Both the position numbers and the translations under genes were made by a program. This document shows positions 11,154 to 62,063 of a stretch of DNA of 64,000 nucleotides, piece after piece. The notes under the pieces were generated by a model. The model did not search any database and had not been told where the DNA came from. It saw nothing but the letters and a program-made list of their open reading frames with translations. The stretch's first letter is position 1, and the number at the start of each line of letters is the position of its first letter. The DNA lies in assembly GCA_965224715.1 (NCBI GenBank), contig OZ245054.1:906411-970410 (forward strand), read 5' to 3'. The DNA is from Spirochaetota bacterium (GTDB lineage: Bacteria > Spirochaetota > UBA12135 > COTS27 > CAXSBA01).

Positions 11154-11157
11154 TTAT

Positions 11158-11229
11158 GTCTCCATCGTCTAGTGGTTAGGACACCAGGTTTTCATCCTGG
11201 CAACCGGGGTTCGATTCCCCGTGGAGATG
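11158..11229 (+). tRNA. tRNA-Glu (anticodon TTC)
   Basis: gtctccatcgtctagtggttaggacaccaggttTTCatcctgg...ggggttcgattcccc. G1-U72 wobble at the acceptor end. Confidence 0.75.
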
Positions 11230-18100: not shown

Positions 18101-18400
18101 TACCAAACGAGAAAAAAATTTAGTGAAACTAAGTTGTTCTTCTTTAGGGTTTATCGATTCGTGAGTCATTACCTGTAAAAAGCGATTCCCTTCTTTACGT
18201 ATGATGGTAAGTGACCATTTTTGAAGATTATCCTCCTTAATAATAAAAGGAATTTCTATAAAGTCTTTAACGCCATCTAAATTTGGAGAGAAATAACGGT
18301 TTGCATTGGTGAACTGCCCGTAACCTTTATGGACAGTCAACACAACTCCAAACATAATGACCGAAAGAAGTGATATTATATTCTTGATCAGATCGAACAT
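15164..18400 (-). CDS. Large (1078 aa) secreted OmpA-family protein with ~6 FlgD-Ig-like repeats
   Basis: Signal peptide. Recurrent 'FSPNGDGxxD' segments (FSPNGDGVKD, FSPNGDGRKD, FSPNQDGFFD, ISPNGDGKLD, FSPNDDGNKD, FFSPDGDNIND). C-terminal OmpA motif VVGHTDSRGSDAYNNSLSIKRA...NRRVEFFL. Confidence 0.65.
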   Translation of the reverse strand: MFDLIKNIISLLSVIMFGVVLTVHKGYGQFTNANRYFSPNLDGVKDFIEIPFIIKEDNLQKWSLTIIRKEGNRFLQVMTHESINPKEEQLSFTKFFSRLVAKDTPLKAPNSYLWEGRNDNGELVEDGIYYFTITAVDSWGNKNKSPLIPIVVDIISPKSEFILDTDIFSPNGDGRKDELQIAINSKNFNSQDSWYLTLSNSEGKVTKTFVSSEPNTSISWDGITDNGEKAPTGTYHIALESRDLAGNSYKSEKKKVYLVREFEEINLEVSQPVFSPNQDGFFDNITFETYLSSTEGMEKWNLEIKNESGRIVKTFGNSPFAKAIFYEGKSDDGQQLFDGIYTSQLRTWFRSGNQPNSPPVTFKIDTEAPTVGVKLRNKILNPNAIGSGYKNLLAMHIYDLSETNSYQISILKQNGDSILKRSYLNNHPPKDFLWDGKNEKGEISPGKYVYVFKAKDEVENINSVVSDPFEVIDENLNVEVITDNTSISPNGDGKLDTISFSFNINNRYRNILTEGKLLIYNESQETVKEFYFTKLPETLVWDGLVDPQFNRDGSESGPLPDGVYFFTFTAKFQTQEDILSTAEKLYLDTTPVELEIMSHETAFSPNDDGNKDQIIFNNRHIPSVLRPESDQFTVYIFKVEEGKEVIYRRKEWKGDFPSELLWTGKDQVEEDSPEGIYRLRIDTIDHAFNEKTYKSRLFRLVRKFEELNLKVMPDLLTSLPEGSPHELIITPEISSTEGIQGISYSFFLSNEKKSAFARKNNINSVKWNLLKQKKNTVNGIELQGGFYYLQAIAEYKSGNRPQSPVKKIYIDNEYPTATVNTQPLFFSPDGDNINDKLSVRIIVNDNYGIKNVGAAIFRKEETPKKMSPEESYLYHNQKQIPLKTWSWNFNSKKFDKQFSWNGKGDLGDSVESATDYVLFVRGRDKVGLPVTVEHSFLVDILVEKLSDGRLRIILNSINFQYNSDKMLGNYEKVLNLLIRMLRKFPDYHINVVGHTDSRGSDAYNNSLSIKRALRVLNYLQNQGGLDKDRLTSEGKGKQELLILKEKEVDPQITGKIREKMIEDNYRKNRRVEFFLKKE

Positions 18401-19940: not shown

Positions 19941-21359
19941 ATGAAAGGCTTGAAATCAAAAAAGAATCTTAATTTAAATAAGTCCTATGATGTATGTATT
20001 GTAGGAGCTGGGGTTGCAGGAACGGTTTTGGCAGCTTTACTATCACGTCTTAACTACCGGATTTTGATTATCGAAAAAAGTTTCAGAGAACAGGAAAAGA
20101 TTATTGGTGAACTTCTTCAGCCAGGAGGAGTGGAGTGTTTAAAAAGTATGGGACTTGGCTTTCTTCTCGAAGAAATTGATGCTCAAGAGGTTGAAGGCTA
20201 TACCCTTTTTCTTAAGGATGAGTTTATCTCTATACCTTATAATCAGGAGAATAATTTGCAAGCCTATGCCTTTAGGAATGTCAAATTTGTTACTCGAGCC
20301 AGACAATATATTAGTACGCTCCCTCAAGTTGATCTGATAGAAGGGAATGTCTGTGATGTCATTATTGAAAATAAAACAATTAAGGGAGTTGTTTATCAAT
20401 ACCAAAATAGAACCATGCATGCCCATGCTAATCTTACCTTTGTCTGTGAAGGGGCGATGCCTAAACTGAAATTAAAAAAAAATCTGGCTTGTGAGAGTAG
20501 AAAAAAGAGCAGTTATTTTGTTGGAACATTGTTGACCGATTGTGAACTTCCAGTAGCTAAAAATGGACATGTCATTTTAACTGGAGAATATCCTATCCTT
20601 ATTTATCCAATTTCTTCTAGTGAGACACGAATTTTAATCGATTTCCCAAAAACTCCTAAAATGGGTCAACAGATGCGAGATCACCTAAAGAGCCAAATCC
20701 GCCCCCATTTACCCGAAACCGTTCTGTCAGCTTTTGATAAAGCTGTGGATAAAGGTAAATTTATAGGAATGCCTAACCAGAATCTTCGTACTTATCCACT
20801 TAAGAATAAGAAAAATGTGGTATTAATAGGTGATAGTTTTAATATGAGGCATCCTCTTACTGGTGGGGGGATGTCGGCAGTATTCAATGATATTAGGAAT
20901 ATTTTTACCTTGATAGCTGGATATTCTGATTTAAGCGATCAAAATAATATTGATAGAATCATAGCTCGTTATTATGACATTAGAGTTCGGGATGTAGCTA
21001 ATATTAATATTCTAGCGGATTCTCTTTATCGAGCTACCCTTGATCCCTATCTTAAAATAGCTAGCTTTAATTATTTAAAACAAGGTAACCATGATGCTAT
21101 CCGAATTTTGGCTGGGATTGATAAAAGTAAATTCAATTTAGTTAAACACTTTGCTAATGTTGTCTCAAATGGAATAAATAAACTTCAGCTTAATAATAGA
21201 AAGAAGATTCAACTACTAGCCAAAGCAAGTGGGATAGTTATCCCGCTTCTTCTACAAGAGGGGAACACAAAGTTTCATAGATGGGGCAAACAATTATTGG
21301 ATAGATTTTTCCCTCCTCACATTAATGCAAAAGCATCTACCCAAAAAAATTCCCCCTGA
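19941..21359 (+). CDS. Squalene monooxygenase (squalene epoxidase, ERG1/SQLE-like, FAD-dependent)
   Basis: YDVCIVGAGVAGTVLAALLS (GxGxxG), IGELLQPGGVECLKSMGL, EIDAQEVEGYTLF and GDSFNMRHPLTGGGMSAVFNDI all parallel eukaryotic SQLE motifs. Confidence 0.8.
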   Translation: MKGLKSKKNLNLNKSYDVCIVGAGVAGTVLAALLSRLNYRILIIEKSFREQEKIIGELLQPGGVECLKSMGLGFLLEEIDAQEVEGYTLFLKDEFISIPYNQENNLQAYAFRNVKFVTRARQYISTLPQVDLIEGNVCDVIIENKTIKGVVYQYQNRTMHAHANLTFVCEGAMPKLKLKKNLACESRKKSSYFVGTLLTDCELPVAKNGHVILTGEYPILIYPISSSETRILIDFPKTPKMGQQMRDHLKSQIRPHLPETVLSAFDKAVDKGKFIGMPNQNLRTYPLKNKKNVVLIGDSFNMRHPLTGGGMSAVFNDIRNIFTLIAGYSDLSDQNNIDRIIARYYDIRVRDVANINILADSLYRATLDPYLKIASFNYLKQGNHDAIRILAGIDKSKFNLVKHFANVVSNGINKLQLNNRKKIQLLAKASGIVIPLLLQEGNTKFHRWGKQLLDRFFPPHINAKASTQKNSP

Positions 21360-23598
21360 ACTTTTCATTAAGAGTTGGAAGTTATTTACTGAAAATGGTC
21401 GTCAATATTGGCGGTATTTACCGACTCAAGATCTTCGTTCTGTATTCAAGAAAAAACGACTTCAAGAAGAAGAAAAATTAAAAGCTCTTTCTCAAGCATT
21501 TGTATATGATAAACATAAATTGCATCATGCTTGTGATTTAGTCTTTCGAAAGTCAAGAAAATTCCACTATCAAACGAAACTCCGTCATCGTTTTCTCTCA
21601 AAAAAATCATCAAATAAGGATTCTGATCATTTAACTAATTTAGTGACGGACTCATTGGTGAGGGGATGGGATTATTTTACATCATTACAAACACAAGAAG
21701 GTCATTTCCCTGGGGACTATGGAGGACCGCTTTTTCTTATGTCTAATTTAGCTCTTCTCTCTTTCACCACCAGCTTTGATTTGGGAAAGCCTCAGGTTAC
21801 CTTGATGAAACGTTATATCTTTAACCATCAAAATCCTGATGGAGGGTGGGGTCTTCATATTGAAGGAGAATCGATCATGTTTACTACCGTAGTTAATTAC
21901 ATTACACTCCGGCTTTGGGGGGAAGATCCTTCTAAGTTAGAGGATGCCCGAAAATGGATCAGGAAGAATGGGGGAGCGGGAGATATCCCCTCATGGGGAA
22001 AATATTTTCTAGCTATGGTGGGGTTATATGAATGGAAAGGCATTGATTCCCTTTCTCCAGAAAGCTGGCTTTTTCCCCGATCTTTTATTTTTTCTCCTTA
22101 TCGTTTATGGTGTCATGCCCGGATGGTTTATCTTCCTCTAAGTTATCTTTATGGGATTCGTTTTAAGCCGAGTAAGAAACAATTATCGATGCCGATCATC
22201 TCTCAGCTTAAAAAGGAAATTTATCTTGAAAACTATGACAGTATAAATTGGATAAAGTTAAGAAAACGATGTTGTCCTCGGGATGAATATTTTCCGGTTT
22301 CTAAAAGGTTTAAGTTATTATCTATGGTTTTGAATTTTTATGAAAAAATTCATCTCTCTTTTTTTCGCAAGAAAGCATTATTGATAATAAGCAAATATAT
22401 CGATAGTGAGGATATCCAAACGGACTTTATCAACATCGGCCCTATCAGTAAGGTGTATAATGCTTTGGTGATTTATTATCGTCTACAGAATGATCCCGCT
22501 AACCCTAAATTGCAACAGTCATGGAAAAGACATTGTGAAAGGATCCAAGATTATCTTTGGGTAGCTGAAGATGGCATGAAGATGAATGGATATAATGGCT
22601 CCCAGTTTTGGGATACCCTATTTACTGGGAAAGCTCTACTTGCCTTACCTAGGAATTTAAAAAAGTATTACCGTAAACCCATGAAACAAATTCAAAGGTT
22701 TTTAAATAATCATAGGCTTGATGAAGGGGGCTGGCCCTTTTCGACGAGACAGCATTCTTGGCCAATTTCAGATTGTAGTGCTGAGGGAGTGATTTATAGT
22801 TTGGCTTTTCATAGGCGAGGCGATATAGATGATTACTCTAGACTTACTAAAAGTGTTAATTTTATATTGGGATTACAAAATCCTGATGGAGGCTGGCCTT
22901 CTTATGAAGTGCAAGGTGGACCTGCTTGGTTAGAATGCCTCAATTCTTCCATGATTTTTGGAGATATTATGGTTGATTATTCTTATGTGGAATGTACTTC
23001 ATCAAATATCCAGGCCTTGGAAAAATTTCATAACTTTTACCCTGATTATCGGAATAAGGAAATTTGTTGTGCGTTAGACAGAGGAAGACAATTTATTATC
23101 TCTAAACAAAAACCCGATGGATCCTGGTATGGGTCATGGGGGATATGCTTTACTTATGGAATTTTTTTTGCGGTAAAAGGTTTAATCGGATTAGACAAAC
23201 CTGCAAGTCGAAAGGCTCTTGTAAGTTCAGCTAAATTTCTATTGAAAAATAGAAATTCTGACGGTAGTTGGGGAGAGTCTTACCTTTCCTCAAGTAAAAA
23301 GATTTATCACAGTACTTCCGGTCAAGCTGTACATACCGCATGGGCAACTCTTTCTCTTCTTCCTCTTATTGAAAAGGGTATCTGTGATGAGTCTTTAATA
23401 CTTGATGAACTTAAAGCTGCAGTAAAAAAGGGGATCGGTTTTCTTATAAATATTCAAAAGAGTGATGGGGATTGGCCACAACCCCATATTACCGGCGTTT
23501 TTAATCAAAACTGTATGATCACTTATACTAACTATCGGAATATTTTTCCTTTATGGGCTTTGGGAGTTTTTCTTGATAGATCAAGTAAGTTTTCATAG
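21325..23598 (+). CDS. Oxidosqualene cyclase (lanosterol/cycloartenol synthase-type triterpene cyclase)
   Basis: 757 aa. GRQYWRY near the N-terminus. MKMNGYNGSQFWDTLF (cf. LSS MKMQGTNGSQIWDTAF). ISDCSAEG (the OSC DCTAE catalytic Asp motif, not the SHC DxDDTA). QW repeats QNPDGGWG, QNPDGGWP, KQKPDGSWYGSWG, NRNSDGSWGES. ATG start overlaps the SQE stop by 35 nt. Confidence 0.85.
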   Translation: MQKHLPKKIPPELFIKSWKLFTENGRQYWRYLPTQDLRSVFKKKRLQEEEKLKALSQAFVYDKHKLHHACDLVFRKSRKFHYQTKLRHRFLSKKSSNKDSDHLTNLVTDSLVRGWDYFTSLQTQEGHFPGDYGGPLFLMSNLALLSFTTSFDLGKPQVTLMKRYIFNHQNPDGGWGLHIEGESIMFTTVVNYITLRLWGEDPSKLEDARKWIRKNGGAGDIPSWGKYFLAMVGLYEWKGIDSLSPESWLFPRSFIFSPYRLWCHARMVYLPLSYLYGIRFKPSKKQLSMPIISQLKKEIYLENYDSINWIKLRKRCCPRDEYFPVSKRFKLLSMVLNFYEKIHLSFFRKKALLIISKYIDSEDIQTDFINIGPISKVYNALVIYYRLQNDPANPKLQQSWKRHCERIQDYLWVAEDGMKMNGYNGSQFWDTLFTGKALLALPRNLKKYYRKPMKQIQRFLNNHRLDEGGWPFSTRQHSWPISDCSAEGVIYSLAFHRRGDIDDYSRLTKSVNFILGLQNPDGGWPSYEVQGGPAWLECLNSSMIFGDIMVDYSYVECTSSNIQALEKFHNFYPDYRNKEICCALDRGRQFIISKQKPDGSWYGSWGICFTYGIFFAVKGLIGLDKPASRKALVSSAKFLLKNRNSDGSWGESYLSSSKKIYHSTSGQAVHTAWATLSLLPLIEKGICDESLILDELKAAVKKGIGFLINIQKSDGDWPQPHITGVFNQNCMITYTNYRNIFPLWALGVFLDRSSKFS

Positions 23599-27241: not shown

Positions 27242-29308
27242 GTGCCTTCTTTTATTGATCTTCCCCAGAAAAAGGAGTTTTCCGAAACTATCAATGAAAT
27301 CATTGAGCTGCGAAGTAAACGAAAATATATTTTTGAGACGAATATCAATAACAACGCGACTCGCAAGAAAGCTTTAGGTATCCTTAAGGAGAGGCTAGAC
27401 TTTCTGCGTCAATCAGCTCGTGAATTATACTCGACTGTATCTTCTATCAATAATCGTGCTTTCTTTACTGAGGACCCAGACTTTATTAAGGGCGAAGTAA
27501 AGCCGAATGCTCCAGTGGGAGATTATGAAATTGAAATTTTGGAATTAGGTGATAAGCAACTCCTTATAAGTGATCCATTGCCTGATAAAATCATATTGCC
27601 AGAGAGTCAGATTGAAATTGAAATTAAAAATGAAAAAATCTTTTTTGACTTTCAAGGGGGAGACGCTAAGAGTTTTGTTCGAAATTTTAATGAAGCGTAT
27701 AAAGGATATTTTACAGCAAATTGGATTAGCAAATCTGAAGATGAAAGTTACTTTGTCGTTCAAGCCAACCAAATAGGTGAGGCCTATCGATTTAACCTTA
27801 GAAAAGATTCTAGTGAAGTATTTGCAGCACTTAAACTACTTAAAGCTAAACCTCCAATCATCAAAACATTTATTGATACCAAATCTTTAATTGAAATGGG
27901 GTGGGCTACCTATAAGAAAGAAAATATTGCGGGAGTGATTATTCCTCCTGGTGCTATTCCTGATCTCAGTTTTTCCAATCACATGGAAGTTGGCTCTACA
28001 GTACCCAACCAGGGCGTTGAACCGGGAGTGATGCCTTTAGATCTTACCGTGGACTTTATAGAAACCCAACATATTTTTTTTAAGATAGATATACTTTCCC
28101 CTCAATCACTTTTTGAAAATAACAAGGTTGAACCTGATCTAGGTCATGATAAAAGTAATGGGTTATCGATCAGCCATTTGAATGCAACGAATGAGATTTC
28201 TAAAATCTCAAATCAGCACTTGATTAAATCTAGTCAGGAAAAAATTATTCAGGAACTTAAAATTCAAAATGAGCCGATTATGGTTTTGGAATACTTTGCT
28301 GAAGGGGAGGAGCGAACTAAGACTTTTACTTGGAATAATGTTTACGATGACCGAATTTGGATAAACGATTCACGATTGGGTGCTGGGTTAGACAAGACCG
28401 TTGTATTTCGTTCCATTAAATTTATTAATGGCTCTGAATATCCTTATATTGCAGGGAAGTGGTTTCGTTCCCTTTATAATACAAATCAAGATAAGTATCT
28501 TCCGGTCAATGAGAAGTCCTCACCTTCAAAAGTGGAATTTCGGTTTTATTCCATTGATATGGAAAGAGAAAGTGCAATTGTGGATGATCTTATTGATGGG
28601 GTTATCCTTAATTTTTTAAAGGTTAAGGATGAGCCAGTTCGGTTTTCGATTCAAAACTATATTGAAGGATATAATCAGCAAATCAAAAATTTTGTTGGGC
28701 AATATAATTATACTTTAGACTTTATAAATTTGAGTTTGGCTCCAGGAAAAGAAGAGTTGGTATTAGATCAGATAGAGTCTGGGATGGAAGAAATGATCGG
28801 AGTTTTTGACTCTGAAACAAGTATTCAACGACTTAAAGATAAGATGAAGGAAATTCTTCAAAAGGGTTATCTTCTTAAAGAAAATGAACGAGAGGTTTAT
28901 CTTCAAGAAGTTGGCATTAAGGTATTCAATTCATTATCCAAACCTTATCATATCAATGCTTCAAAAATAGAATTGGATGAGGAACGACTTCAAGCCCAAC
29001 TTTTGAAGTACGGAGATGAAATTAAGAATCTTTTTCGTTATGACAAGAATAAGGATTATGTTCCCGATGATGGTTTTGCTTATTTGATGGATAAGCTATT
29101 AAGAGAATATTTGGCTCCTAACTCTATATTTACTTTGATGGAGAGGAGCTTGGATAAAGAGAAAGATTCCTTAGAGAAATCACTGGATGCGGAACAAAAA
29201 CGTATCAATAGTTATCGAGAAAAATTAGAAAGTGATTTTGCTAAAGTAAAGCAAGTCCGTGAACGTCAGAAACAGTTAGAAAAGTGGCTTAAAACAGCAG
29301 GGGAATAG
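27242..29308 (+). CDS. Hypothetical 688-aa protein immediately downstream of ftsZ
   Basis: Long ORF with a coiled-coil C-terminus (EKDSLEKSLDAEQKRINSYREKLESDFAKVKQVRERQKQLEKWLK). No recognisable family. Confidence 0.35.
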   Translation: MPSFIDLPQKKEFSETINEIIELRSKRKYIFETNINNNATRKKALGILKERLDFLRQSARELYSTVSSINNRAFFTEDPDFIKGEVKPNAPVGDYEIEILELGDKQLLISDPLPDKIILPESQIEIEIKNEKIFFDFQGGDAKSFVRNFNEAYKGYFTANWISKSEDESYFVVQANQIGEAYRFNLRKDSSEVFAALKLLKAKPPIIKTFIDTKSLIEMGWATYKKENIAGVIIPPGAIPDLSFSNHMEVGSTVPNQGVEPGVMPLDLTVDFIETQHIFFKIDILSPQSLFENNKVEPDLGHDKSNGLSISHLNATNEISKISNQHLIKSSQEKIIQELKIQNEPIMVLEYFAEGEERTKTFTWNNVYDDRIWINDSRLGAGLDKTVVFRSIKFINGSEYPYIAGKWFRSLYNTNQDKYLPVNEKSSPSKVEFRFYSIDMERESAIVDDLIDGVILNFLKVKDEPVRFSIQNYIEGYNQQIKNFVGQYNYTLDFINLSLAPGKEELVLDQIESGMEEMIGVFDSETSIQRLKDKMKEILQKGYLLKENEREVYLQEVGIKVFNSLSKPYHINASKIELDEERLQAQLLKYGDEIKNLFRYDKNKDYVPDDGFAYLMDKLLREYLAPNSIFTLMERSLDKEKDSLEKSLDAEQKRINSYREKLESDFAKVKQVRERQKQLEKWLKTAGE

Positions 29309-47891: not shown

Positions 47892-48563
47892 ATGAAAAAA
47901 AAAATCTATGCCGCTTGGTTTTCCGGTAAGGAAAAATCGGCGGTTTTTTATGATAGTTGGGAAGCCTGTAAGCCTCAAGTGGAAGGGGTTTCCGGTATCC
48001 GTTATCGGGGTTTCCTAGACCGAAAACATGCTGAGGAATTTTTGGGAATCACCCCCTCCGATCACGGTCTGGATATTCCCGATGATACCTTGTTTCGAGA
48101 TAAAGAGGCTGAAAATACCCTCATTATTTATGTGGATGGCTCTTTTCAAGAGGGCACTCCTTATGCCGGATGGGCTTGGGTGGCTCTCACCCATCATAAT
48201 CAAAAAGATACCTTGGTTGGAGAAGATTATGGCATAACCGCAGAACCAGCCCTAAGCCGCAATATCGACGGGGAAATCACTGCAGTGTTGGAATCGGTGA
48301 AATGGGTGGAAAATTATCTGCCTACCCAAAAAAGTGATTGGCAAAAAACCAAGGTGGTTGTTCTCTATGACTATCAGGGAATAGAATCCTGGGCTATGGG
48401 GAAATGGAAAGCCAAAACCCTCATCAGTCAACATTACCAAAAAGAGATGATCCCTTACCGAAATTATATCCATTTCCACAAAGTTTCTGCTCATTCCGGT
48501 AAAAAATGGAATGAATACGTGGACCGACTGGCCAAGGAAGCAGTTTGGAAGTTGAAAGGATAG
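47892..48563 (+). CDS. rnhA: RNase H type 1 with N-terminal hybrid-binding (caulimovirus viroplasmin-like) domain
   Basis: HBD: KIYAAWFSGKEKSAVFYDSWEACKPQVEGVSGIRYRGFLDRKHAEEFL. RNase H core: IYVDGS...GEITAV...HKVSAHSGKKWNEYVDRLAKEA. Confidence 0.7.
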   Translation: MKKKIYAAWFSGKEKSAVFYDSWEACKPQVEGVSGIRYRGFLDRKHAEEFLGITPSDHGLDIPDDTLFRDKEAENTLIIYVDGSFQEGTPYAGWAWVALTHHNQKDTLVGEDYGITAEPALSRNIDGEITAVLESVKWVENYLPTQKSDWQKTKVVVLYDYQGIESWAMGKWKAKTLISQHYQKEMIPYRNYIHFHKVSAHSGKKWNEYVDRLAKEAVWKLKG

Positions 48564-48667
48564 TAAGGCGTTAATTCTGATGATCGAAAGACAAAGATTC
48601 CCTACTACTTTTAATAATAAAATTTGGAGAAAAACTGATACTTAGTTTATTTAATATTTACTAAAAC

Positions 48668-48752
48668 TAAAAAATGGGCAGTTAAGGATGCCCAGCCTTG
48701 CAGTATGAACTTTATTATAGTCCACTTACCAAAGATATTGTATCATTAATTT
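48668..48752 (-). ncRNA. Candidate tracrRNA (anti-repeat, linker, GC hairpin, U-tract)
   Basis: Minus strand reads AUGAUACAAUAUCUUUGGUAAGUGGACUAUAAU (complementary, with a bulge and G:U pairs, to the minus-sense repeat GTTATAGCCCACTTACCACC...). Then aaaguucauacugcaaggcu, then GGGCAuccuuaacUGCCC, then AUUUUUU. Confidence 0.55.
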
Positions 48753-48797
48753 ACAGTTGGATTAATAAATTTTTTTGAAATTTACAAAGGAGTCATT

Positions 48798-51700
48798 ATG
48801 AAAATTCTTGGAATTGATATGGGAATCACTTCTATTGGATGGGGCCTTATTCACTTTAATCCTCGGGAAAGAGAAGAAACTCGAATTATCGATGCCGGGG
48901 TAAGGATTTTTACCAAGGCTGAGCATCCAAAAGATGGATCTTCTCTGGCACTTCCTCGCAGAGAAGCCAGGGGAAGAAGACGAATATTAGTTAGAAAAAG
49001 GGAAAGGATGCAGAAAATCAAGGAGCTATTTATCGAGTATTTTGGTCTTGACCGTGAAAGTCTTTTTGAGATAGGGGATTACGGTTCTGGAACGATTTTT
49101 AAGGAGAAGAAGAAGAGTGATGTTTGGGAACTTAGAGATGCAGCCCTTGAAAGAAAATTAAGTCTAAAGGAGATGGCTAGAGTCCTGACCCATATCGCCA
49201 AACGCAGAGGTTATCATTCCAACAGTAAATCTGATGATTCAGAAAAAGACAAAGGTAAGGTTATTGAAGCGATTAAGGCTAATCAAGAAAATTTAAAAAA
49301 ATTAGGCTATTCTACACCGGGACAAATGATGTATCGGGAATCTCAAAAAAGTAGTTCCAAATCCGGTGATTATTTTTTACGAATTCGAAATACTACCAAT
49401 GATTATCGCCATGTAGTAACTCGGGAAATGCTCCGCGATGAAGTGGAAAAAATTTTTTCTGTTCAGAAAAAATTTTCCAAAAAATATTCTTCAGAGTTAA
49501 AGAACCGGTATTTGGATATAGCCTTTTATCAAAGACCACTCAAATCCAGCGAAGATATGGTAGGACCTTGTACTTTTGAGTCTGATGAAAAAAGGGCTCC
49601 TAAATACAGTTATAGTGCTGAACGATTTGTTTTGCTTGGCAAGATTATCAATACCATGATGATCGATGCCGGTGAAAATAATCGGTATAAAGAAAAGCGT
49701 CTCCTTGACTTCTGTCCGATGGATAAAATTCTTGAAGTCTTTCATGACCAGAAAGAGGTGAAATACCAAACTTTGAGGAAAAATTTAGAGATAGCAGATC
49801 ATCTCAAATTTAAAGATGTCAACTATAACGAGGATCCGGAGAATAAAAAGCTTCCCAAGGTAGATTCTTTTTTTAAAAAAGAGACCTGGTTAGAGAAAGA
49901 TCAAAAAGAACTCTTGACTTATAATGATAAGGAGAATCATTCACACTTTCATAAATGGATCCGAAAATATACGGACATTAGAAGGGCTTTGAAACTTGAT
50001 AAGAATTTTGAATTTATCTCTTTGAAAAGTGATTATAAGAAGCACCCTGAAAGCAAGGAATTCTACTCGCTAAAGGGGTATCATATTTTCAAAAAAGCAT
50101 TATCTTCAGAAGAATTTGAACAGTTTTTTCAAAATCTTTCGGTTTATAATGAGGTAGCTTATATCTTAACCGTAGAGCAAGGAATTAAAGAAATCCGAGA
50201 GCGTTTAGAGTCTATTCCTGGCATTTCCTCCTATATCGATAAGCTGGTCACCATTACGGGCTTTAAGGGATTTAATCATTTGTCCATTAAGGCGATGAAC
50301 AAACTTACCCCTCATCTTAGGGCTGGGAAACGATATGATGAGGCTGCTCGGGAGGTGTATGGACATCACTCGGTTAAAAAGGGAAATCAGGCTGAACTCC
50401 TGAGAATCTTGAATCGAGAAGAGAATTATCAACTTACCAACCCGGTGGTGAAACGGGCCTTCGCTCAATTTCGCAAGGTTGTTAATGCAATAGTCCGAAA
50501 GCATGGTCAGTTTGATAGCCTTCATATTGAACTAGCCCGCGAGCTAAAGCATAGTTACAAGCAACGGCAAGAAATCATACGGGGGCAAAATGAATTTAAA
50601 GGTAACAAGGATGCGGCTAAGGAAAAGTTTATAGAACTCTGTCGCAGAGAACCGGCTGCGAGTGAACTTCTAAAATTTCGTTTGTGGGAGGAACAAGAAG
50701 GGAAATCAGTTTATAGCGGTAAGCCTATCTCTATTAACGAATTGGCAAAAAACGATAAGGCTTTCGAAATTGATCATATTCTTCCTTATAGTCGAACTTT
50801 CGATAATACCCTCAATAACAAAGTTTTGGTGTTAGCAGAAGAGAATCAACATAAGAAAAACCGAACTCCCTTTGAATGGTTGGGAAAGAAAAATGAAGAC
50901 GATCCCTCCTGGCTGGAATTCAAAAGTCGATTATTCAGTTTTAAGAATTTGGGAAAAGCTAAGATTAATAAACTTTTCAATACCACCCTGTCTCAAAAAC
51001 ACGGGGAAGAATTCGATGAAGACGATCCGGAAAGTAATTTTTTCATCAATCGCAATCTCAACGATACTCAGTTCATGGCTAAGTTTATTAAAAATTTTGT
51101 GGAACAGAACCTTAAATTTGCCGATAACCCGGATGTCAAGCAAAAGGTCAAAGTGAGGAATGGGATGGTAACTTCTCATCTTGCCTATCTTTGGGGAATA
51201 GGTCGGGTGATCCAGGAAATCCTTCCTACTGAAAAAGAAGATCGAGATGGAAAAGATCCGACCAAGAAGATTCGAGATAATCACCTCCACCATGCCCTTG
51301 ATGCCCTGGTGATTGCCGCTACCACTCAAAGCGAAGTGCAGCGGATGTCCACTTATTCTGCCCGTTTTGAAGATTATCAGTTCAAAAGTAAGGAGGAGAA
51401 GGAGAAAGTTAAAAAACTGAGAACCTCCACGCCCTTCAATGACGAGGAACTGAAGCGGAAACTCTCGAATATTTTTCCTTCCTATGCTCCCCGTCGTAAG
51501 GTGACCGGAGCCGCCCATGAAGAAACCCTTTACAGTGGAAAAACTTATCAGTCAAAAAACAAATCCAAATTGGTCGGAGCTAGCCTTAAGTACCCGGTAA
51601 AACTCAACCACGGAAAGACCTTGGCTAAAAAAAGTTCCATGCCTCGTATCGATCTCTTCCGTCATGTGGAAAACAAAAAATATTTCATCGTCCCCATCTA

Positions 51701-52097
51701 TGTAGCTGACTTTGTCAAAAAACAACTGCCCAGTCATGCGATTATTGGCGGAAAAGATAAGGAAGGAAACCCCAAACCCTGGTTAGAGATGGATGATAGC
51801 TATGAGTTCATCACTTCCATCTATAAGAACGATCTCATCGAAGTGAAGACAAAGAAGGAAACAGTAAGAGGCTACTTTGATAGCGCTGACAGTAGTACCG
51901 GTACTATCTCTTTAAAATCTCCTCAAACCGGTCATCCTTTTAGGAAAGGTATGGGAATTCAAGGAGCTTTACAAGTTCGTAAATTCGAGGTCTCTCCTCT
52001 TGGTGAAATCCATGAGGTTTCCCTCCCTCAAGATCGGGTGGGAACCCTCCATGAGTTGAGAAGGATCAAGAAAGAAAAAGCAATGGATAAAAACTAA
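48798..52097 (+). CDS. cas9: Cas9 (type II-C size class, 1099 aa)
   Basis: RuvC-I MKILGIDMGITSIGWG. Arg-rich bridge helix RREARGRRRILVRKRER. HNH EIDHILPYSRTFDNTLNNKVLV...NRTPFEW. RuvC-III HHALDALVIAATT. RBS aaaggag lies 6 nt upstream. Confidence 0.95.
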   Translation: MKILGIDMGITSIGWGLIHFNPREREETRIIDAGVRIFTKAEHPKDGSSLALPRREARGRRRILVRKRERMQKIKELFIEYFGLDRESLFEIGDYGSGTIFKEKKKSDVWELRDAALERKLSLKEMARVLTHIAKRRGYHSNSKSDDSEKDKGKVIEAIKANQENLKKLGYSTPGQMMYRESQKSSSKSGDYFLRIRNTTNDYRHVVTREMLRDEVEKIFSVQKKFSKKYSSELKNRYLDIAFYQRPLKSSEDMVGPCTFESDEKRAPKYSYSAERFVLLGKIINTMMIDAGENNRYKEKRLLDFCPMDKILEVFHDQKEVKYQTLRKNLEIADHLKFKDVNYNEDPENKKLPKVDSFFKKETWLEKDQKELLTYNDKENHSHFHKWIRKYTDIRRALKLDKNFEFISLKSDYKKHPESKEFYSLKGYHIFKKALSSEEFEQFFQNLSVYNEVAYILTVEQGIKEIRERLESIPGISSYIDKLVTITGFKGFNHLSIKAMNKLTPHLRAGKRYDEAAREVYGHHSVKKGNQAELLRILNREENYQLTNPVVKRAFAQFRKVVNAIVRKHGQFDSLHIELARELKHSYKQRQEIIRGQNEFKGNKDAAKEKFIELCRREPAASELLKFRLWEEQEGKSVYSGKPISINELAKNDKAFEIDHILPYSRTFDNTLNNKVLVLAEENQHKKNRTPFEWLGKKNEDDPSWLEFKSRLFSFKNLGKAKINKLFNTTLSQKHGEEFDEDDPESNFFINRNLNDTQFMAKFIKNFVEQNLKFADNPDVKQKVKVRNGMVTSHLAYLWGIGRVIQEILPTEKEDRDGKDPTKKIRDNHLHHALDALVIAATTQSEVQRMSTYSARFEDYQFKSKEEKEKVKKLRTSTPFNDEELKRKLSNIFPSYAPRRKVTGAAHEETLYSGKTYQSKNKSKLVGASLKYPVKLNHGKTLAKKSSMPRIDLFRHVENKKYFIVPIYVADFVKKQLPSHAIIGGKDKEGNPKPWLEMDDSYEFITSIYKNDLIEVKTKKETVRGYFDSADSSTGTISLKSPQTGHPFRKGMGIQGALQVRKFEVSPLGEIHEVSLPQDRVGTLHELRRIKKEKAMDKN

Positions 52098-52165
52098 CCA
52101 TAGCTTATCAAAGTCATTAAAGAACCGGGGAGTCAATATCGAGAATTTAACTACCTTTTTTATTA

Positions 52166-53077
52166 TTGATTATGGCTTGGCGATCTGTTTCTATCACCCA
52201 TCCCGCTCATCTTTCGGTGTCTTCGGGTCGTCTCAAGATCGCCCAGGAAGAAACCCATTTCCTCCCTCTCGATGATCTTAATGCTATCATCTTGAGTCAT
52301 CCCCGGATATCTCTTACCGCTCCCCTCCTGGGACGGTTGGCAGATCACAATATTGCGGTGTTTAGTACCGATGAACGGCATCTCCCTAATGGGGTTTTTT
52401 ACTCCTTTCAGGGTCATAGTCGGCAGACCAAGATGATCAAGGAGCAGATCGGTTGGTCATTACCTTTTAAAAAAAGGATGCAGCAGAAAATCATAATCAA
52501 CAAAATCAGAAATCAGGGAGAGGTTTTAAATTACCTCTATCCCGAGACTCGTCCGGGAGAAAAGCTGTTTCCTTTAATCAAGGATGTTGATTCCGGTGAT
52601 CGCCGCAATCGAGAGTCGCAGGCTGCCAGTCAATATTTTCGAATCTTATTTCATGCCTTTAACCGTCGAGCAGACAACCTCCACAATGCGGCTCTCAATT
52701 ACGGCTATTCCTTAGTCAGGGGATTTACCGCCCGGGCAGTTGTAGCCCATGGTTTTATTCCCTGTTTGGGACTTTTTCATGATAGTGAGCTTAACTCGTT
52801 TAATTTAGCCGATGATCTCATGGAGCCTTACCGTCCCCTCGTGGATGAGAGAATATTCCAATTACTGGGAAAAGATACCCGAAAAGTATCCGACAGTGAA
52901 CTTAGCCCGGAATTAAAAAAATCTATAGCGGAGATTATTTTCACTCCCTGTCGATTGCGGGGGGAGGAATTACAGCTTCATCACAGCCTGGATGTTCTCG
53001 CTCGAAGTCTTAGCAGTGCCTCCCGGCATAATGACTACAAACGTTTTTTAGAAGTGGAGTTGATTTTATCTTCATGA
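52166..53077 (+). CDS. cas1: Cas1 (type II). TTG start in the ORF track; alternative ATG at 52172
   Basis: NAALNYGYSLVRGFTARAVVAHGFIPCLGLFHDSELNSFNLADDLMEPYRPLVD matches the type II Cas1 core. 4-nt overlap with cas2. Confidence 0.9.
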   Translation: MIMAWRSVSITHPAHLSVSSGRLKIAQEETHFLPLDDLNAIILSHPRISLTAPLLGRLADHNIAVFSTDERHLPNGVFYSFQGHSRQTKMIKEQIGWSLPFKKRMQQKIIINKIRNQGEVLNYLYPETRPGEKLFPLIKDVDSGDRRNRESQAASQYFRILFHAFNRRADNLHNAALNYGYSLVRGFTARAVVAHGFIPCLGLFHDSELNSFNLADDLMEPYRPLVDERIFQLLGKDTRKVSDSELSPELKKSIAEIIFTPCRLRGEELQLHHSLDVLARSLSSASRHNDYKRFLEVELILSS

Positions 53078-53400
53078 AAGAGGAGGATCGGTTTTTGCGT
53101 CTTTTTGTTTTTTTCGATTTACCGGTAGTGAGCGAACAGGAAAGAAGCCGAGCCGGTCGTTTCCGGCGACTACTCATTAAAAATGGTTTTTTTATGATAC
53201 AGTTCTCCATTTATTGTCGAATCTGTCGAGGACAGCAGAATGTGGATAAATATCGCAAACGGATCAAATCCTATCTCCCCCCTTACGGCAATATTCGCCT
53301 CATGCAGGTAACAGAGAAACAGTTTGAGAATATGGAAATTTTACTAGGAAAATTTAAAAAAGAAGAAAAATTTAAAGATAATCAACTTCTCCTTTTTTAA
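53074..53400 (+). CDS. cas2: Cas2
   Basis: LRLFVFFDLPVVSEQERSRAGRFRRLLIKNGFFMIQFSIY is a typical Cas2 N-terminal beta-alpha fold signature. 108 aa. Confidence 0.85.
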   Translation: MKEEDRFLRLFVFFDLPVVSEQERSRAGRFRRLLIKNGFFMIQFSIYCRICRGQQNVDKYRKRIKSYLPPYGNIRLMQVTEKQFENMEILLGKFKKEEKFKDNQLLLF

Positions 53401-53521
53401 AAAATTCAGAAAAAATTTGACTCAAGTCACAGTTTTAGCCCCTCCTCAATGTATTTTTTTGATCAAAAAAACCTTGATTTCCTAAGTTTTTCCATAGAAA
53501 ATCAGGGTTTTTTCGAGACGT

Positions 53522-55404
53522 ATTATAACACAGAAAAGGTGGTAAGTGGGCTATAACGGGGCAGATGACAAATACGGAAATATCGATATTATAACACAGA
53601 AAAGGTGGTAAGTGGGCTATAACACTGCGGGTTTTAGCTACATAGAATTAATTATTATAACACAGAAAAGGTGGTAAGTGGGCTATAACTTGAACCCCAT
53701 TATTCAGAATTTAAATAATATTATAACACAGAAAAGGTGGTAAGTGGGCTATAACGGTTATCTTGAATTCACCTATTCCTCAGATATTATAACACAGAAA
53801 AGGTGGTAAGTGGGCTATAACACTAAAGCTCAAGGGGGGTTCAAGGTAACAATTATAACACAGAAAAGGTGGTAAGTGGGCTATAACCCTGTACCTGTGT
53901 TCTTTGGTGAGGTTGCAATTATAACACAGAAAAGGTGGTAAGTGGGCTATAACATCGATTACAAACTCTTGTGCCGCCTCAAGATTATAACACAGAAAAG
54001 GTGGTAAGTGGGCTATAACGATTTAAGGAAGAAGAAGGCAGAAGCTGACATTATAACACAGAAAAGGTGGTAAGTGGGCTATAACTAGTCATAGCCACGC
54101 CTGCCACAAGGTCTCATTATAACACAGAAAAGGTGGTAAGTGGGCTATAACTTCATAGATAGTCCAATGGAAAGTGTCGATATTATAACACAGAAAAGGT
54201 GGTAAGTGGGCTATAACGATGACACCAGAGCAACAAATAAAAAAGTTATTATAACACAGAAAAGGTGGTAAGTGGGCTATAACGAATAAATACCCTTTAT
54301 GCTTATAACTCTAATTATAACACAGAAAAGGTGGTAAGTGGGCTATAACTGATACTATGAACGAAGATAGGAAAATAAAGATTATAACACAGAAAAGGTG
54401 GTAAGTGGGCTATAACGCCTCTGATTTAATATTCTTAAACGCCTCAATTATAACACAGAAAAGGTGGTAAGTGGGCTATAACCGATATATATCGCAGAAG
54501 TTACCTGTAGACATTATAACACAGAAAAGGTGGTAAGTGGGCTATAACTATTGTACTAAACTGCTACTTTTTAATTTTATTATAACACAGAAAAGGTGGT
54601 AAGTGGGCTATAACAAAGGTAATTTAAGTAGTAAGAGAGTAGCTATTATAACACAGAAAAGGTGGTAAGTGGGCTATAACTCGCACCCGTGTTAGTATTC
54701 GTGGGTGTGAATTATAACACAGAAAAGGTGGTAAGTGGGCTATAACGGCAAAAAAAAACACACCTTAAGATTATTATTATAACACAGAAAAGGTGGTAAG
54801 TGGGCTATAACCTTCGTCAAGGAGCAGTACTGACACCGATTATTATAACACAGAAAAGGTGGTAAGTGGGCTATAACATCTTGAGTTCACATACTCGGCT
54901 GAGTATGATTATAACACAGAAAAGGTGGTAAGTGGGCTATAACTCAGGGTTTGTGATGATGAACGGATCTTTAATTATAACACAGAAAAGGTGGTAAGTG
55001 GGCTATAACATATTAATAGAATACACGCCAGACTGTCAGATTATAACACAGAAAAGGTGGTAAGTGGGCTATAACCTTTGTCCCCATCGATAAGAGGTTT
55101 GTCTATTATAACACAGAAAAGGTGGTAAGTGGGCTATAACACCCCATACCCTCCCCCACCAGTTGGGGAGATTATAACACAGAAAAGGTGGTAAGTGGGC
55201 TATAACAGGTACATTGGTCTTGTGAAAGCTATCGGGATTATAACACAGAAAAGGTGGTAAGTGGGCTATAACCATTAAGTCGATGTCATGAGTTGAAAGA
55301 ACATTATAACACAGAAAAGGTGGTAAGTGGGCTATAACTCAGAGGTTACGAGTTGGTTACGAGTTGTCATTATAACACAGAAAAGGTGGTAAGTGGGCTA
55401 TAAC
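53522..55404 (-). CRISPR. CRISPR array: 29 identical 36-bp repeats and 28 spacers (29-31 bp, mostly 30). The crRNA sense is inferred to be the minus strand (repeat 5'-GTTATAGCCCACTTACCACCTTTTCTGTGTTATAAT-3')
   Basis: Repeat starts at 53522, 53588, ... 55369 (period 66). Plus-strand repeat is ATTATAACACAGAAAAGGTGGTAAGTGGGCTATAAC. The minus-sense repeat begins GTT.TAG like other type II repeats and ends in the extended -10 TGTTATAAT. Confidence 0.95.
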
Positions 55405-55424
55405 TCGGAAGGCTTATAAAAAAT

Positions 55425-55475
55425 GTCTGCGTTTATCTGCGGTAAATAAAATCGTATCCGCAGATAAACGCAGAC
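55425..55475 (-). terminator. Strong hairpin (18-bp perfect stem, 15-nt loop) followed on the minus strand by a T6 tract; likely terminator of the minus-strand ABC-transporter operon, shielding the array
   Basis: gtctgcgtttatctgcgg / ccgcagataaacgcagac. The plus strand is preceded by ttataaaaaat, which reads aTTTTTTataa on the minus strand after the stem. Confidence 0.5.
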
Positions 55476-55690
55476 GGCGGATGGTGAGATAATATACCCT
55501 TGAAGATAAAACTTTTACCTAGACTCCTTCTTAACTCTGGATGAGGGTTTGCCATTGACATCTAACATTTCTTTTTTCATAATTTTATTGCCTTTCTATA
55601 GTTATTTTTTATATTGATCTTGACTTCATTAACAGATGACAGGGGTATTCTATCAATATTTTCTTCAAAGTATCTCCAAGAGTACTATTT

Positions 55691-55726
55691 CTATAAGGTT
55701 ATAAATAACACGGAAGAGGTGGTAAA
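55691..55726. repeat. Degenerate CRISPR repeat remnant ~290 bp beyond the array
   Basis: ataaATAACACgGAAgAGGTGGTAAaTaGGttttat vs ATAACACAGAAAAGGTGGTAAGTGGGCTATAAC. Confidence 0.4.
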
Positions 55727-55803
55727 TAGGTTTTATTATTTTCTCATTATTTGTTATTTCATAAAGCATTTAAAACTTAAAGAATGTGATTGAGTACTTT
55801 TTG

Positions 55804-60324: not shown

Positions 60325-62063
60325 TTAATGAAGAAAATGGCGTGTGGAGGTAAAAACCAGTTCGATTTTCCGTTTTTTAGCTTCAGCGATTACCTCATCA
60401 TCACGAATGCTGCCTCCTGGTTGAATAATTTTACGAATTCCACAGTCATAACTTGCCACAATACTATCTTTAAAGGGGAAGAAGGCATCACTTGCGAGAA
60501 CACAGTCGTGAAGTAAAGTTTCTAACTCTGTTTTAGGTAATTGCGGAAACATTCTGGACAAGTTATCTTTAGCTTTTACAATAGCTAGTTTTTTGATGGA
60601 ATCAATTCGGTTGGGTTGACCAGTTCCAGCACCCAGAAGCATGAATTGACCGTTTTGATAAGGATAGCAGATACAGATTGCATTACTTTTAAGGTGTTTG
60701 ACAGTCCGAAAGGAGAATTCATAAAGATCAACATTCATCCTTTCTTTCTTTTTAAAGCCTGTTGAGCTCATTTTGCTATAGAGTTGCTGATCTTTTTCTT
60801 GGACTAGTATTCCTCCGGTAATAAAATGATAAGTTAATTCTTTAATTTCATTTTTAATCTTACTGATTTTCATATTACGGAGATTGGTTTCGGTTAATAC
60901 CTTAGACTGTGGGGTTTTGATAATCCTAAGGCTCTTACTTTTTTTCTTAAGCCATGCCAAAGCTTTAGGTTCAAAGTCAGGAGCTAAAATAACTTCAATA
61001 AATTTATCATTCAAAAATCGAATACTCTTAAAATCGAAAGTCTGATTGGTTGCGACAATTCCACCGTAGGCGGAAACTGGATCTCCTTCCCAAGCCATTT
61101 CTAAACAAGTAGCGAGATTATCTCCTGTGGCTAATCCGCAAGGATTGCCATGTTTGACAACAACAGCTGCCTTACTCGGGAAAAAATCCCAAACACAAGC
61201 CAAGGCGGCTTCAGCATCCAAATAATTATTATAAGACATGGCTTTGCCATTGAGGATTTCCGCTCCGATTAAAGTTGGCTGTTGATTTATAGGGCCTATT
61301 TTACCACCCTGATTAAGGGGAGATGAGCTATCTTTTTGGGATAGGTAATTCTCTGGATTATAAGAAGAATATATCCAAGCCTTCTGGTGAGGGTTTTCTC
61401 CGTAACGAAGTTCACGGCCACTTTGAAAATGTAGATTAAGATTTTTTTCTTCGAAATAAGTTTCACTAAAGTAGTTGGAAATAGTTAGGTCATAATGGGC
61501 TGTTGTTCTGAAGGCTTTAATGGCCAGATACCTTCGAGTTTCCGAATCTGTATTTTTTTTATATCGTATCTGTTGGATAACTTTTTCATAATCATTGATA
61601 TCGGAAACTACAGTCACCCATTCATGATTTTTAGCGGCAGCTCTTATAAGAGCCACACCGCCGATATCTATATTTTCGATAGCACTTTTGGTATTGGCTT
61701 TACCTGATTTAATAGTTTTTTCAAAAGGATAAAGATTAACAACTACAAGGCGAAGATCAACATAACTGAGTTCCCGGATCATCCGGCTGTCTGAAGTATG
61801 ATTGCGGCGATAGAGAATGCTGGCATGGATAGCAGGATGCAGGGTTTTTACTCGCCCTTCCAAAATTTCAGTAAAGTGGGTAAGATGTTCGACTTTATGA
61901 ACGTCAAGACCTTCTTTTTTTAGGTAAGAATAGGTTCCACCACTGAATAGATGACAATTCCACTTCGAGCTAAATTTTGAGCAAATTCTTTTATCCCAGT
62001 TTTATCAGAAACCGAAATTAGGGCTGCGGTTATTCGATTTAACTCTTTTTTTGATTTTTTCAT
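60325..62063 (-). pseudogene. purH: purH (bifunctional AICAR transformylase/IMP cyclohydrolase) interrupted by a -1 frameshift near 61945-61960
   Basis: Frame A from ATG at rc(62061-62063) gives MKKSKKELNRITAALISVSDKTGIKEFAQNLARSGIVIYSVVEPILT*. The -1 frame continues FSGGTYSYLKKEGLDVHKVEHLTHFTEILEGRVKTLHP..., which joins the 512-aa ORF 60325..61863. Confidence 0.7.

What the first reader, a model, noticed from the sequence alone, without database searches (positions are those of the whole stretch)
47892..55404. Complete type II-C CRISPR-Cas locus with 28 spacers
cas9 (1099 aa, all RuvC/HNH motifs intact), cas1 and cas2 are followed 121 bp later by 29 perfectly identical 36-bp repeats. There is no csn2 or cas4, so the locus is subtype II-C. 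Perfect repeat identity, uniform 30-bp spacers and intact nucleases suggest an active system. The spacers are a record of this organism's mobile-element exposure.
Basis: seen in the sequence. Interest (0 to 1): 0.6.

Follow-up and report, generated by a model that had tools for sequence, protein, structure and literature searches.

The report
Ordinary complete type II-C CRISPR-Cas9 locus
This is a complete, apparently working but otherwise ordinary type II-C CRISPR-Cas9 immune locus, from a poorly sampled spirochaete lineage; none of the phage or plasmid targets of its 28 spacers could be found.

Summary
There are 29 identical 36-bp repeats (53522-55404) and 28 spacers, starting 121 bp after cas2. 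Upstream lie cas9 (1099 aa, catalytic motifs intact), cas1 and cas2. No csn2 or cas4 is present, so the subtype is II-C.

- A ~62-nt tracrRNA sits upstream of cas9 on the minus strand (about 48730-48669). It has its own promoter, a 17-nt anti-repeat and an intrinsic terminator.
- The array is read on the minus strand, towards cas2. Every repeat ends in TGTTATAAT, a perfect extended -10 promoter, as in Neisseria and Campylobacter II-C arrays.
- Terminator hairpins flank the array on both sides.
- An orphan degenerate repeat (55702-55737) lies 297 bp beyond the array. It is the ancestral terminal repeat.

Corrections: three spacers are 29 or 31 bp, not 30.

No protospacer was found in any searched collection, so the PAM and the targets remain unknown. 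The Cas9 is divergent: 92% identity to one relative, 49% or less to everything else. The host is probably an undersampled Spirochaetota lineage.

Verdict: a new member of a known kind, of low interest.

The parts
47892..48563 (+). RNase H-like gene with an N-terminal hybrid-binding domain.
   Evidence: Pfam Cauli_VI plus RNase_H. The best solved match is 2kq2, 'ribonuclease H-related protein'. It starts 14 bp after the RND pump gene. It is found next to cas9 only in the close relative L001 and in none of the 83 other Cas9 loci.
48737..48745 (-). Predicted tracrRNA promoter, TGATACAAT (extended -10).
   Evidence: Read directly from the minus strand. It lies 7 nt upstream of the anti-repeat. It is identical in L001. 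L002 has TATAAT at the same distance.
48669..48730 (-). Predicted tracrRNA of about 62 nt. It comprises the anti-repeat GGUAAGUGGACUAUAAU (48730-48714), a linker AAAGUUCAUACUGCAAGGC, a terminator hairpin (48694-48675) and a U6 run (48674-48669).
   Evidence: The anti-repeat is the best match to the repeat outside the array. The terminator was called by the scan. A chimeric repeat-tracr fold gives 7 bp, a 1x1 mismatch and 9 bp, at -30.2 kcal/mol and z = -4.8. The core is 100% conserved in L001 while its flanks diverge. A homologue in L002 carries a compensatory A-U to G-C change.
48798..52097 (+). cas9, 1099 aa.
   Evidence: TIGR01865 at 661 bits, plus HNH_4 and RuvC_III. II-C structures are the best solved relatives. 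Catalytic residues D7, E578, H660, H832 and D835 are present.
52166..53077 (+). cas1, type II (the exact start codon is uncertain).
   Evidence: TIGR03639 cas1_NMENI at 262 bits. 97% identical in L001.
53074..53400 (+). cas2. It overlaps cas1 by 4 bp.
   Evidence: TIGR01573 and PF09827.
53401..53521 (.). The cas2-array gap. This is the inferred spacer-integration side (leader-equivalent). It contains a bidirectional terminator-like hairpin at 53466-53513.
   Evidence: 95% identical to L001. The hairpin is flanked by an A run and a T run and folds on both strands, with z = -3.5 on plus and z = -6.4 on minus.
53522..55404 (-). CRISPR array of 29 identical 36-bp repeats and 28 spacers. The crRNA sense is the minus strand, where the repeat reads GTTATAGCCCACTTACCACCTTTTCTGTGTTATAAT. 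Each repeat ends in the extended -10 TGTTATAAT.
   Evidence: TGNTATAAT occurs 34 times in the window, against 4.8 expected; 29 of these are in the repeats on the minus strand. The repeat aligns without gaps to the C. jejuni and Neisseria II-C repeats (sequences verified in PMC4607530).
55417..55475 (-). Intrinsic terminator just upstream, in the crRNA sense, of the first transcribed repeat. It has a perfect 18-bp stem (55425-55442 / 55458-55475) followed by a U6 run.
   Evidence: The fold is -36.4 kcal/mol with z = -6.9. The T run exists only on the minus strand. It lies between the minus-strand ABC transporter operon and the array.
55405..55701 (.). A 297-bp segment separating the array from the ancestral terminal repeat. 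It carries the terminator above and is absent from the relative L001.
   Evidence: It has no other copy in the window or in the 84 fetched loci.
55702..55737 (-). Orphan degenerate repeat, the ancestral terminal ('extra') repeat.
   Evidence: It was found as the 30th copy and matches 19 of 21 positions in BLAST. It aligns, together with its flank, to the degenerate terminal repeat of L001.

Best explanation
This is a complete type II-C CRISPR-Cas9 adaptive immunity locus with the Neisseria/Campylobacter style of crRNA production.

cas9, cas1 and cas2 are expressed on the plus strand. The array is read on the minus strand, towards cas2. Each repeat ends in a perfect extended -10 promoter (TGTTATAAT). 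Transcription is therefore inferred to start about 7 nt into each spacer, giving a crRNA with a guide of roughly 23 nt followed by the next repeat.

A ~62-nt tracrRNA is encoded divergently just upstream of cas9. It pairs with the first 17 nt of the repeat, with a single internal mismatch that marks the usual bulge. This duplex loads Cas9, whose RuvC and HNH sites then cut matching DNA next to a still unknown PAM.

New spacers are inferred to enter at the cas2-proximal repeat. The oldest end is the far end, where an ancestral degenerate repeat survives.

A strong terminator immediately upstream of the first transcribed repeat should block read-through from the ABC transporter operon. That would prevent a spacer-less 'extraneous' crRNA. 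A bidirectional terminator separates the cas operon from the array.

Shown here: the gene content, motifs, repeat and anti-repeat complementarity, promoter and terminator sequences, and their conservation in relatives. Inferred: expression, RNA processing, the polarity of spacer acquisition, and interference activity.
For: Cas proteins.

Array.

tracrRNA:
- The anti-repeat is the best non-array match to the repeat.
- It has a promoter, a terminator and a U run on the minus strand only.
- The duplex fold has z = -4.8.
- The core is invariant in L001 while neighbouring sequence has indels.
- L002, whose Cas9 is 49% identical, has a homologous tracr in the same place and orientation. Repeat position 11 changes A to G, and the tracr partner changes U to C. 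L002 has a 2-nt bulge exactly where the window has a C.A mismatch.
- The motif ACUAUAAUAAAG resembles the CjCas9 tracrRNA motif ACUAAAAUAAAG (sequence verified in PMC8038530).

Orientation and promoters:
- The repeats of the window, L001, L002 and L003 all end in TGnTATAAT on the minus strand, although the adjacent bases differ.
- All 29 copies carry the motif, against 4.8 expected per window.
- The repeat aligns without gaps to the Cje and Neisseria II-C repeats, sharing GTTnTAG at the start and TGnTAnAAT at the end.

Polarity: the degenerate terminal repeat is at the cas-distal end in L001 and L003, and survives as an orphan in the window. This matches the published II-C rule that spacers enter through the last transcribed repeat and that each repeat has its own promoter (PMC12080349).

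Upstream terminator. It matches one of the three strategies against extraneous crRNAs described for II-C arrays in PMC12080349.
Against: There is no expression data. The promoters, the tracrRNA ends and the terminators are all sequence predictions.

No Rfam family matched the tracrRNA.

The repeat:anti-repeat duplex is short (17 nt). In the proposed orientation it contains a C.A mismatch. On the opposite strands the same position would be a G.U wobble.

No protospacer was found, so neither interference nor the PAM is supported by target data.

The comparison array in L001 comes from a Logan short-read assembly, which could have collapsed a longer array.
Confidence: 0.9

Rival explanations
1. 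The components are the same, but the array is transcribed as one precursor on the plus strand from a leader promoter next to cas2, in II-A style. The tracrRNA would then be read on the plus strand towards cas9.
For: Complementarity is strand-symmetric. The one irregular position would be a G.U wobble rather than a C.A mismatch on the plus strands. The leader lies next to cas2, as in II-A loci.
Against: - The plus-strand 'tracr' has no terminator hairpin, and its fold is no better than shuffled sequence (z = -0.3).
- The minus strand has a promoter, a terminator and a U6 run.
- A bidirectional terminator lies between cas2 and the first repeat.
- The extended -10 motif in every repeat, conserved in three related repeat families, is on the minus strand.
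- On the plus strand the anti-repeat would pair with the 3' end of the repeat, which is not the part retained in mature type II crRNAs.
Confidence: 0.05
2. The locus is a recently silenced or non-functional relic. It looks intact but no longer acquires spacers or interferes.
For: No spacer matches anything in the searched collections. The distant relative L004/L005 keeps cas9 without cas1, cas2 or an array. This shows that decay does occur in this Cas9 clade.
Against: All catalytic motifs and all three ORFs are intact. All 29 repeats are identical. The tracrRNA core is perfectly conserved. The array content differs completely from the 92% relative. The lack of spacer matches is expected for a lineage whose own housekeeping proteins have almost no close relatives in the databases.
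Confidence: 0.07
3. The RNase H-like gene at 47892-48563 is an accessory component of this CRISPR system.
For: It lies immediately next to the tracrRNA and cas9. It is convergent with the tracrRNA, and the adjacency is retained in L001.
Against: L001 is syntenic across the whole neighbourhood, so the retained adjacency carries little weight. The gene is absent from the 83 other Cas9 loci examined, including the 48-49% relatives. It starts 14 bp after the RND pump gene, which suggests co-transcription with that gene.
Confidence: 0.03

Closest known systems
Type II-C CRISPR-Cas of Campylobacter jejuni (CjCas9 system)
   Same: - It has the same cas9-cas1-cas2 content, with no csn2 or cas4.
- It has 36-bp repeats beginning GTTnTAG and ending in a -10-like TGnTAnAAT.
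- Promoters are embedded in the repeats, and the array is read towards the cas genes.
- A terminator lies upstream of the first transcribed repeat (PMC12080349).
- The tracrRNA motif ACUAnAAUAAAG follows the anti-repeat.
- The nearest named Cas9 homologues are Campylobacterota proteins at about 40% identity.
   Different: - Cas9 here is about 115 aa longer (1099 against 984 aa) and only 32-41% identical to Campylobacterota and Helicobacter proteins.
- The tracrRNA lies upstream of cas9 on the opposite strand.
- The anti-repeat is only 17 nt.
- The host is probably a spirochaete.
- The PAM is unknown.
Type II-C CRISPR-Cas of Neisseria meningitidis / N. lactamica (NmeCas9 system)
   Same: Protein sizes are similar (1082, 304 and 108 aa, against 1099, 303 and 108 aa here; PMC4607530). 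Cas1 matches the NMENI model. The repeat aligns without gaps and ends in an extended -10 (TGCTACAAT against TGTTATAAT). Nme1 and Nme2 Cas9 structures are among the best solved matches, at E about 1e-128.
   Different: Sequence identity is low, and the homology is split into three or four stretches. The predicted tracrRNA here is much shorter. The lineage is different.
GeoCas9-like Cas9 structures (chains 9ar4 and 8uza; organism assigned from memory)
   Same: 9ar4 is the best-scoring solved relative, at E = 1.8e-129. The RuvC-I, RuvC-II, HNH and RuvC-III motifs align residue for residue.
   Different: The REC lobe and the C-terminal PAM-interacting region align poorly, so PAM specificity cannot be transferred.

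Membership tests
Type II-C CRISPR-Cas | Cas9 effector with RuvC-like and HNH nuclease domains | tested here: met
   TIGR01865 at 661 bits (cut-off 100), plus HNH_4 and RuvC_III. Catalytic residues align with solved Cas9 structures.
Type II-C CRISPR-Cas | cas1 and cas2 are the only other cas genes, with no csn2 (II-A) and no cas4 (II-B) | tested here: met
   The locus runs cas9-cas1-cas2, then 121 bp, then the array. The flanking genes are an RND pump and an RNase H-like gene upstream, and an ABC transporter downstream. The rest of the genome beyond the window could not be checked.
Type II-C CRISPR-Cas | tracrRNA with an anti-repeat complementary to the CRISPR repeat | tested here: met
   A 17-nt anti-repeat with a promoter and a terminator, conserved in L001 and L002 with one compensatory change. 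Expression was not tested.
Type II-C CRISPR-Cas | Cas9 sequence groups with II-C orthologues | tested here: met
   The top solved matches are 1055-1154-aa Cas9 chains, then 5x2g. I recognise these from memory as II-C enzymes, including Nme1/Nme2 (6jdq, 6kc8) and, I believe, GeoCas9 and CjCas9. The tool output names them all only 'Cas9'. Homologues are Campylobacterota II-C Cas9 proteins. Sizes fall within published II-C ranges. No formal phylogeny was built.
Type II-C CRISPR-Cas (Nme/Cje mode of crRNA biogenesis) | Repeat-embedded promoters; array read towards the cas genes; spacers acquired at the last transcribed repeat; oldest 'extra' repeat at the transcription-proximal end | tested here: inconclusive
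   The sequence features are all present. These are TGTTATAAT in every repeat, motif conservation in relatives, and the degenerate or orphan repeat at the cas-distal end. Transcription start sites and acquisition polarity need experiments or more strains.
Type II-C CRISPR-Cas | PAM-dependent, crRNA-guided DNA interference | not testable with these tools
   No protospacer was found in any searched collection.
Type II-D (Cas9d) | Cas9d-type effector | tested here: not met
   NF049971 scores 147 bits, against a cut-off of 375.

The most novel reading that the evidence does not exclude
The hybrid-binding-domain RNase H gene directly upstream is a lineage-specific accessory of this II-C system. It is convergent with the tracrRNA and retained next to cas9 in the only close relative. 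It might process or clear the RNA:DNA hybrids that Cas9 R-loops create.

A milder alternative concerns the 297-bp terminator-bearing segment. It may have cut off the old terminal repeat and 're-founded' the array from a single repeat. That would explain why all 29 repeats are identical.
Probability: 0.03. Interest if true: 0.55.

Novelty: new member of a known kind. Interest (0 to 1): 0.2.

Why it matters
It matters modestly.

- It adds a divergent, compact Cas9 orthologue, with its cognate tracrRNA and repeat defined. The sequence is 49% identical or less to anything except one near-twin. It comes from a barely sampled spirochaete lineage, and it could be tested for a new PAM.
- The window and its relative L001 appear to use different published strategies against spacer-less crRNAs. 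The window has an upstream terminator; L001 has a mutated extra repeat. This is a neat natural comparison.
- The 28 spacers are, for now, an unreadable record, because the mobile elements of this lineage are not in the public collections.

Nothing here challenges current understanding of type II systems.

Tried and rejected
Spacer targets:
- The whole array was run through BLAST against 50,697 phage records and 72,556 plasmids. Only chance-level hits came back, all with E >= 0.6.
- Exact scans of IMG/VR covered 15 spacers (1-10, 14, 18, 23, 24, 25). There were no hits.
- JGI metagenomes held no match to spacers 1 and 10.
- There is no self-target in the window and nothing meaningful in the 84 fetched loci.

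Other searches:
- The repeat has no match in JGI metagenomes.
- Rfam gives no tracrRNA hit, only two tRNAs.
- The window's own genome is not among the GTDB species representatives.

Ideas considered and dropped:
- An internal duplication in the Cas9 REC lobe, suggested by an overlapping PDB alignment. BLASTP of the two segments finds no similarity.
- The 297-bp segment as decayed repeats or a multi-copy MITE. It has no residual repeat similarity and no second copy.
- The orphan repeat as a second tracrRNA. It is homologous to L001's terminal repeat and lacks a terminator.
- A cyanobacterial host. The window contains no HIP1 (GCGATCGC) sites.
Full report
**Observation.** The array is exactly as described. 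There are 29 identical copies of a 36-bp repeat between 53522 and 55404, separating 28 spacers. Twenty-five spacers are 30 bp, one is 31 bp and two are 29 bp, so 'uniform' is only nearly true. Upstream on the plus strand lie three genes:
- cas9 (48798-52097, 1099 aa);
- cas1 (52166-53077);
- cas2 (53074-53400), which ends 121 bp before the first repeat.

Cas9 scores 661 bits against the Cas9 equivalog TIGR01865. Cas1 matches the type II model cas1_NMENI, and Cas2 matches TIGR01573. Aligned to solved Cas9 structures, the RuvC-I aspartate (D7), RuvC-II glutamate (E578), HNH histidine (H660) and RuvC-III H832/D835 are all present.

**Subtype.** The locus is bounded by an RND efflux pump plus an RNase H-like gene on one side. 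On the other side is an ABC transporter operon on the minus strand. There is no room or ORF for csn2 or cas4.

The best solved relatives are 1055-1154-aa Cas9 chains. I recognise these from memory as type II-C enzymes, including Nme1/Nme2 (6jdq, 6kc8) and what I take to be GeoCas9, followed by 5x2g, which I take to be CjCas9. E-values run from 1e-129 to 1e-94, and the tool output labels them all simply 'Cas9'. The Cas9d (type II-D) model scores far below its cut-off. Protein sizes of 1099, 303 and 108 aa sit inside published II-C ranges (PMC4607530). The II-C call is therefore supported.

**tracrRNA.** The best match to the repeat outside the array lies in the cas9 upstream region, in inverted orientation (48730-48714, 16 of 17 positions). 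Read on the minus strand, this region contains, in order:
- an extended -10 box, TGATACAAT (48745-48737);
- 7 nt of spacing;
- the anti-repeat GGUAAGUGGACUAUAAU;
- a short linker;
- a G+C-rich hairpin (48694-48675);
- a U6 run.

This predicts an RNA of about 62 nt. A repeat-tetraloop-tracr chimera folds into 7 bp, a 1x1 mismatch and 9 bp, plus the terminator, with z = -4.8. The plus strand of the same region has no terminator and folds no better than shuffled sequence.

In L001, a Logan contig whose Cas9 is 92% identical, the promoter-to-terminator core is invariant. Sequence on either side carries substitutions and indels.

In L002, whose Cas9 is 49% identical, a homologous element sits at the same place and on the same strand. 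It keeps ACUAUAAUAAAG and CUGCAGGGCUGGGCAUCC...CUGCCCA. There the repeat has G instead of A at position 11 and the tracr partner has C instead of U, which is a compensatory change. A 2-nt bulge falls exactly where the window has its C.A mismatch. The motif after the anti-repeat resembles that of the C. jejuni tracrRNA (sequence checked in PMC8038530). Rfam has no matching family.

**Orientation and crRNA production.** On the minus strand the repeat reads GTTATAGCCCACTTACCACCTTTTCTGTGTTATAAT. Its last nine bases are a perfect extended -10 promoter (TGnTATAAT). The motif occurs 34 times in the window against 4.8 expected, and 29 of those are in the repeats.

The repeats of L001, L002 and L003 differ in the neighbouring bases but keep TGnTATAAT at the same end. 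The repeat also aligns without gaps to the C. jejuni and Neisseria II-C repeats. It shares the GTTnTAG start and the TGnTAnAAT end with them (sequences verified in PMC4607530).

This is the known II-C arrangement. Each repeat carries its own promoter, the array is read towards the cas genes, and new spacers enter through the last transcribed repeat (PMC12080349). I therefore infer crRNAs that start about 7 nt into each spacer on the minus strand. The PAM should lie 3' of the protospacer when spacers are read in minus-strand orientation.

**The ends of the array.** Between cas2 and the first repeat there is a hairpin flanked by an A run and a T run (53466-53513). It folds on both strands, with z = -3.5 and z = -6.4. 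It looks like a bidirectional terminator separating the cas operon from the array. This 121-bp region is 95% identical in L001.

At the other end, 12 nt beyond the last repeat, a perfect 18-bp hairpin (55425-55475) is followed on the minus strand only by a U6 run (z = -6.9). It stands between the minus-strand ABC transporter operon and the first transcribed repeat. Terminators in this position are one of three mechanisms proposed and tested for II-C arrays to stop read-through from generating a spacer-less 'extraneous' crRNA (PMC12080349).

**The orphan repeat.** A 30th, degenerate copy lies at 55702-55737, 297 bp past the array. It aligns, together with its downstream flank, to the degenerate terminal repeat of L001. 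It is therefore the ancestral cas-distal repeat, which fits the II-C polarity.

In L001 the terminal repeat is mutated in its first eight transcribed bases. That is the 'mutated extra repeat' strategy of PMC12080349. The window instead has a perfect terminal repeat plus the terminator-bearing 297-bp segment, which L001 lacks. The segment has no other copy in the window or in the fetched loci.

One speculative reading is that the insertion cut off the old end and the present array regrew from a single repeat. That would explain the perfect identity of all 29 copies. I cannot test this.

**Evidence for activity.** This is indirect. The motifs are intact, the repeats are identical, and the tracrRNA is conserved. 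L001's array has two repeats and one spacer, and that spacer is unrelated to any in the window. L001 is a short-read Logan assembly, so its array could be collapsed.

**Spacer targets.** None was found.
- There is no self-match in the window.
- Only chance-level hits appear in phage and plasmid records, all with E >= 0.6.
- There is no exact match in IMG/VR for 15 spacers.
- There is no match in JGI metagenomes for spacers 1 and 10.
- The repeat itself is absent from JGI metagenomes.

This is unsurprising. Apart from L001, the best database match to the window's transaldolase is only 56% identical.

**Host.** The genome is not among the GTDB species representatives. The 286-aa flagellin has only Spirochaetota among its named relatives, at 56-62% identity. 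One is on the same Spirochaetota MAG (the 1,685,129-bp contig, OZ255710) that carries the 41% Cas9 homologue. The host is therefore probably a member of an undersampled spirochaete lineage.

**The RNase H-like gene.** Its best solved match is 2kq2, a 'ribonuclease H-related protein'. It starts 14 bp after the RND pump gene. It is next to cas9 only in the fully syntenic L001, and in none of the 83 other Cas9 loci. I treat it as a neighbour, not a component.

**Verdict.** This is a well-formed, probably functional type II-C locus with all the published II-C hallmarks. It is a new member of a known kind. Its only points of interest are a divergent Cas9 from a rarely sampled lineage and a tidy example of array insulation.

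Noticed in passing
window 11261-12271, 19941-21359, 21325-23598: A squalene/phytoene synthase-like gene, a squalene epoxidase (PF08491, 207 bits) and a squalene-hopene/oxidosqualene cyclase lie in the same window. An epoxidase plus cyclase pair suggests sterol-type triterpenoid synthesis. That is uncommon in bacteria and would be notable in a spirochaete.
   Followed up: no
window 47892-48563: This is an RNase H-like protein with an N-terminal hybrid-binding domain. It is conserved beside cas9 only in the close relative L001.
   Followed up: yes
window 60325-61863 (minus strand): The purH ORF is 512 aa and matches its family model only from position 62 onward. The L001 homologue is 579 aa and has the N-terminal MGS domain. 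Possible causes are a frameshift, an unusual start codon or a sequencing error.
   Followed up: no
L002 9407-9537 and 9826-9956: A 419-bp tandem duplication upstream of cas9 in this 49% relative duplicates the tracrRNA region. It also appears to split a SpoU methylase gene into two ORFs. It could be real or an assembly artefact.
   Followed up: partly
L002 19636-19967: The 74-repeat array of this relative is interrupted after a truncated repeat by about 310 bp, which contains an 87-aa minus-strand ORF. Two more repeats follow. This is a second case of an insertion near the cas-distal end of an array in this Cas9 clade.
   Followed up: no
L004/L005 10001-13312 (Spirochaetota MAG OZ255710): The 41%-identical cas9 in this complete-looking chromosome has no cas1, cas2 or CRISPR array within 10 kb. 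It is a solitary cas9.
   Followed up: no
window 5470-6330, 15164-18400, 27242-29308: Three genes point to a spirochaete host: a 286-aa flagellin whose named relatives are all Spirochaetota, a 1078-aa OmpA-family protein resembling the Leptospira adhesin Lsa66, and FliD.
   Followed up: partly
window 11081-11229: Two adjacent tRNA genes are the only Rfam hits in the window.
   Followed up: no
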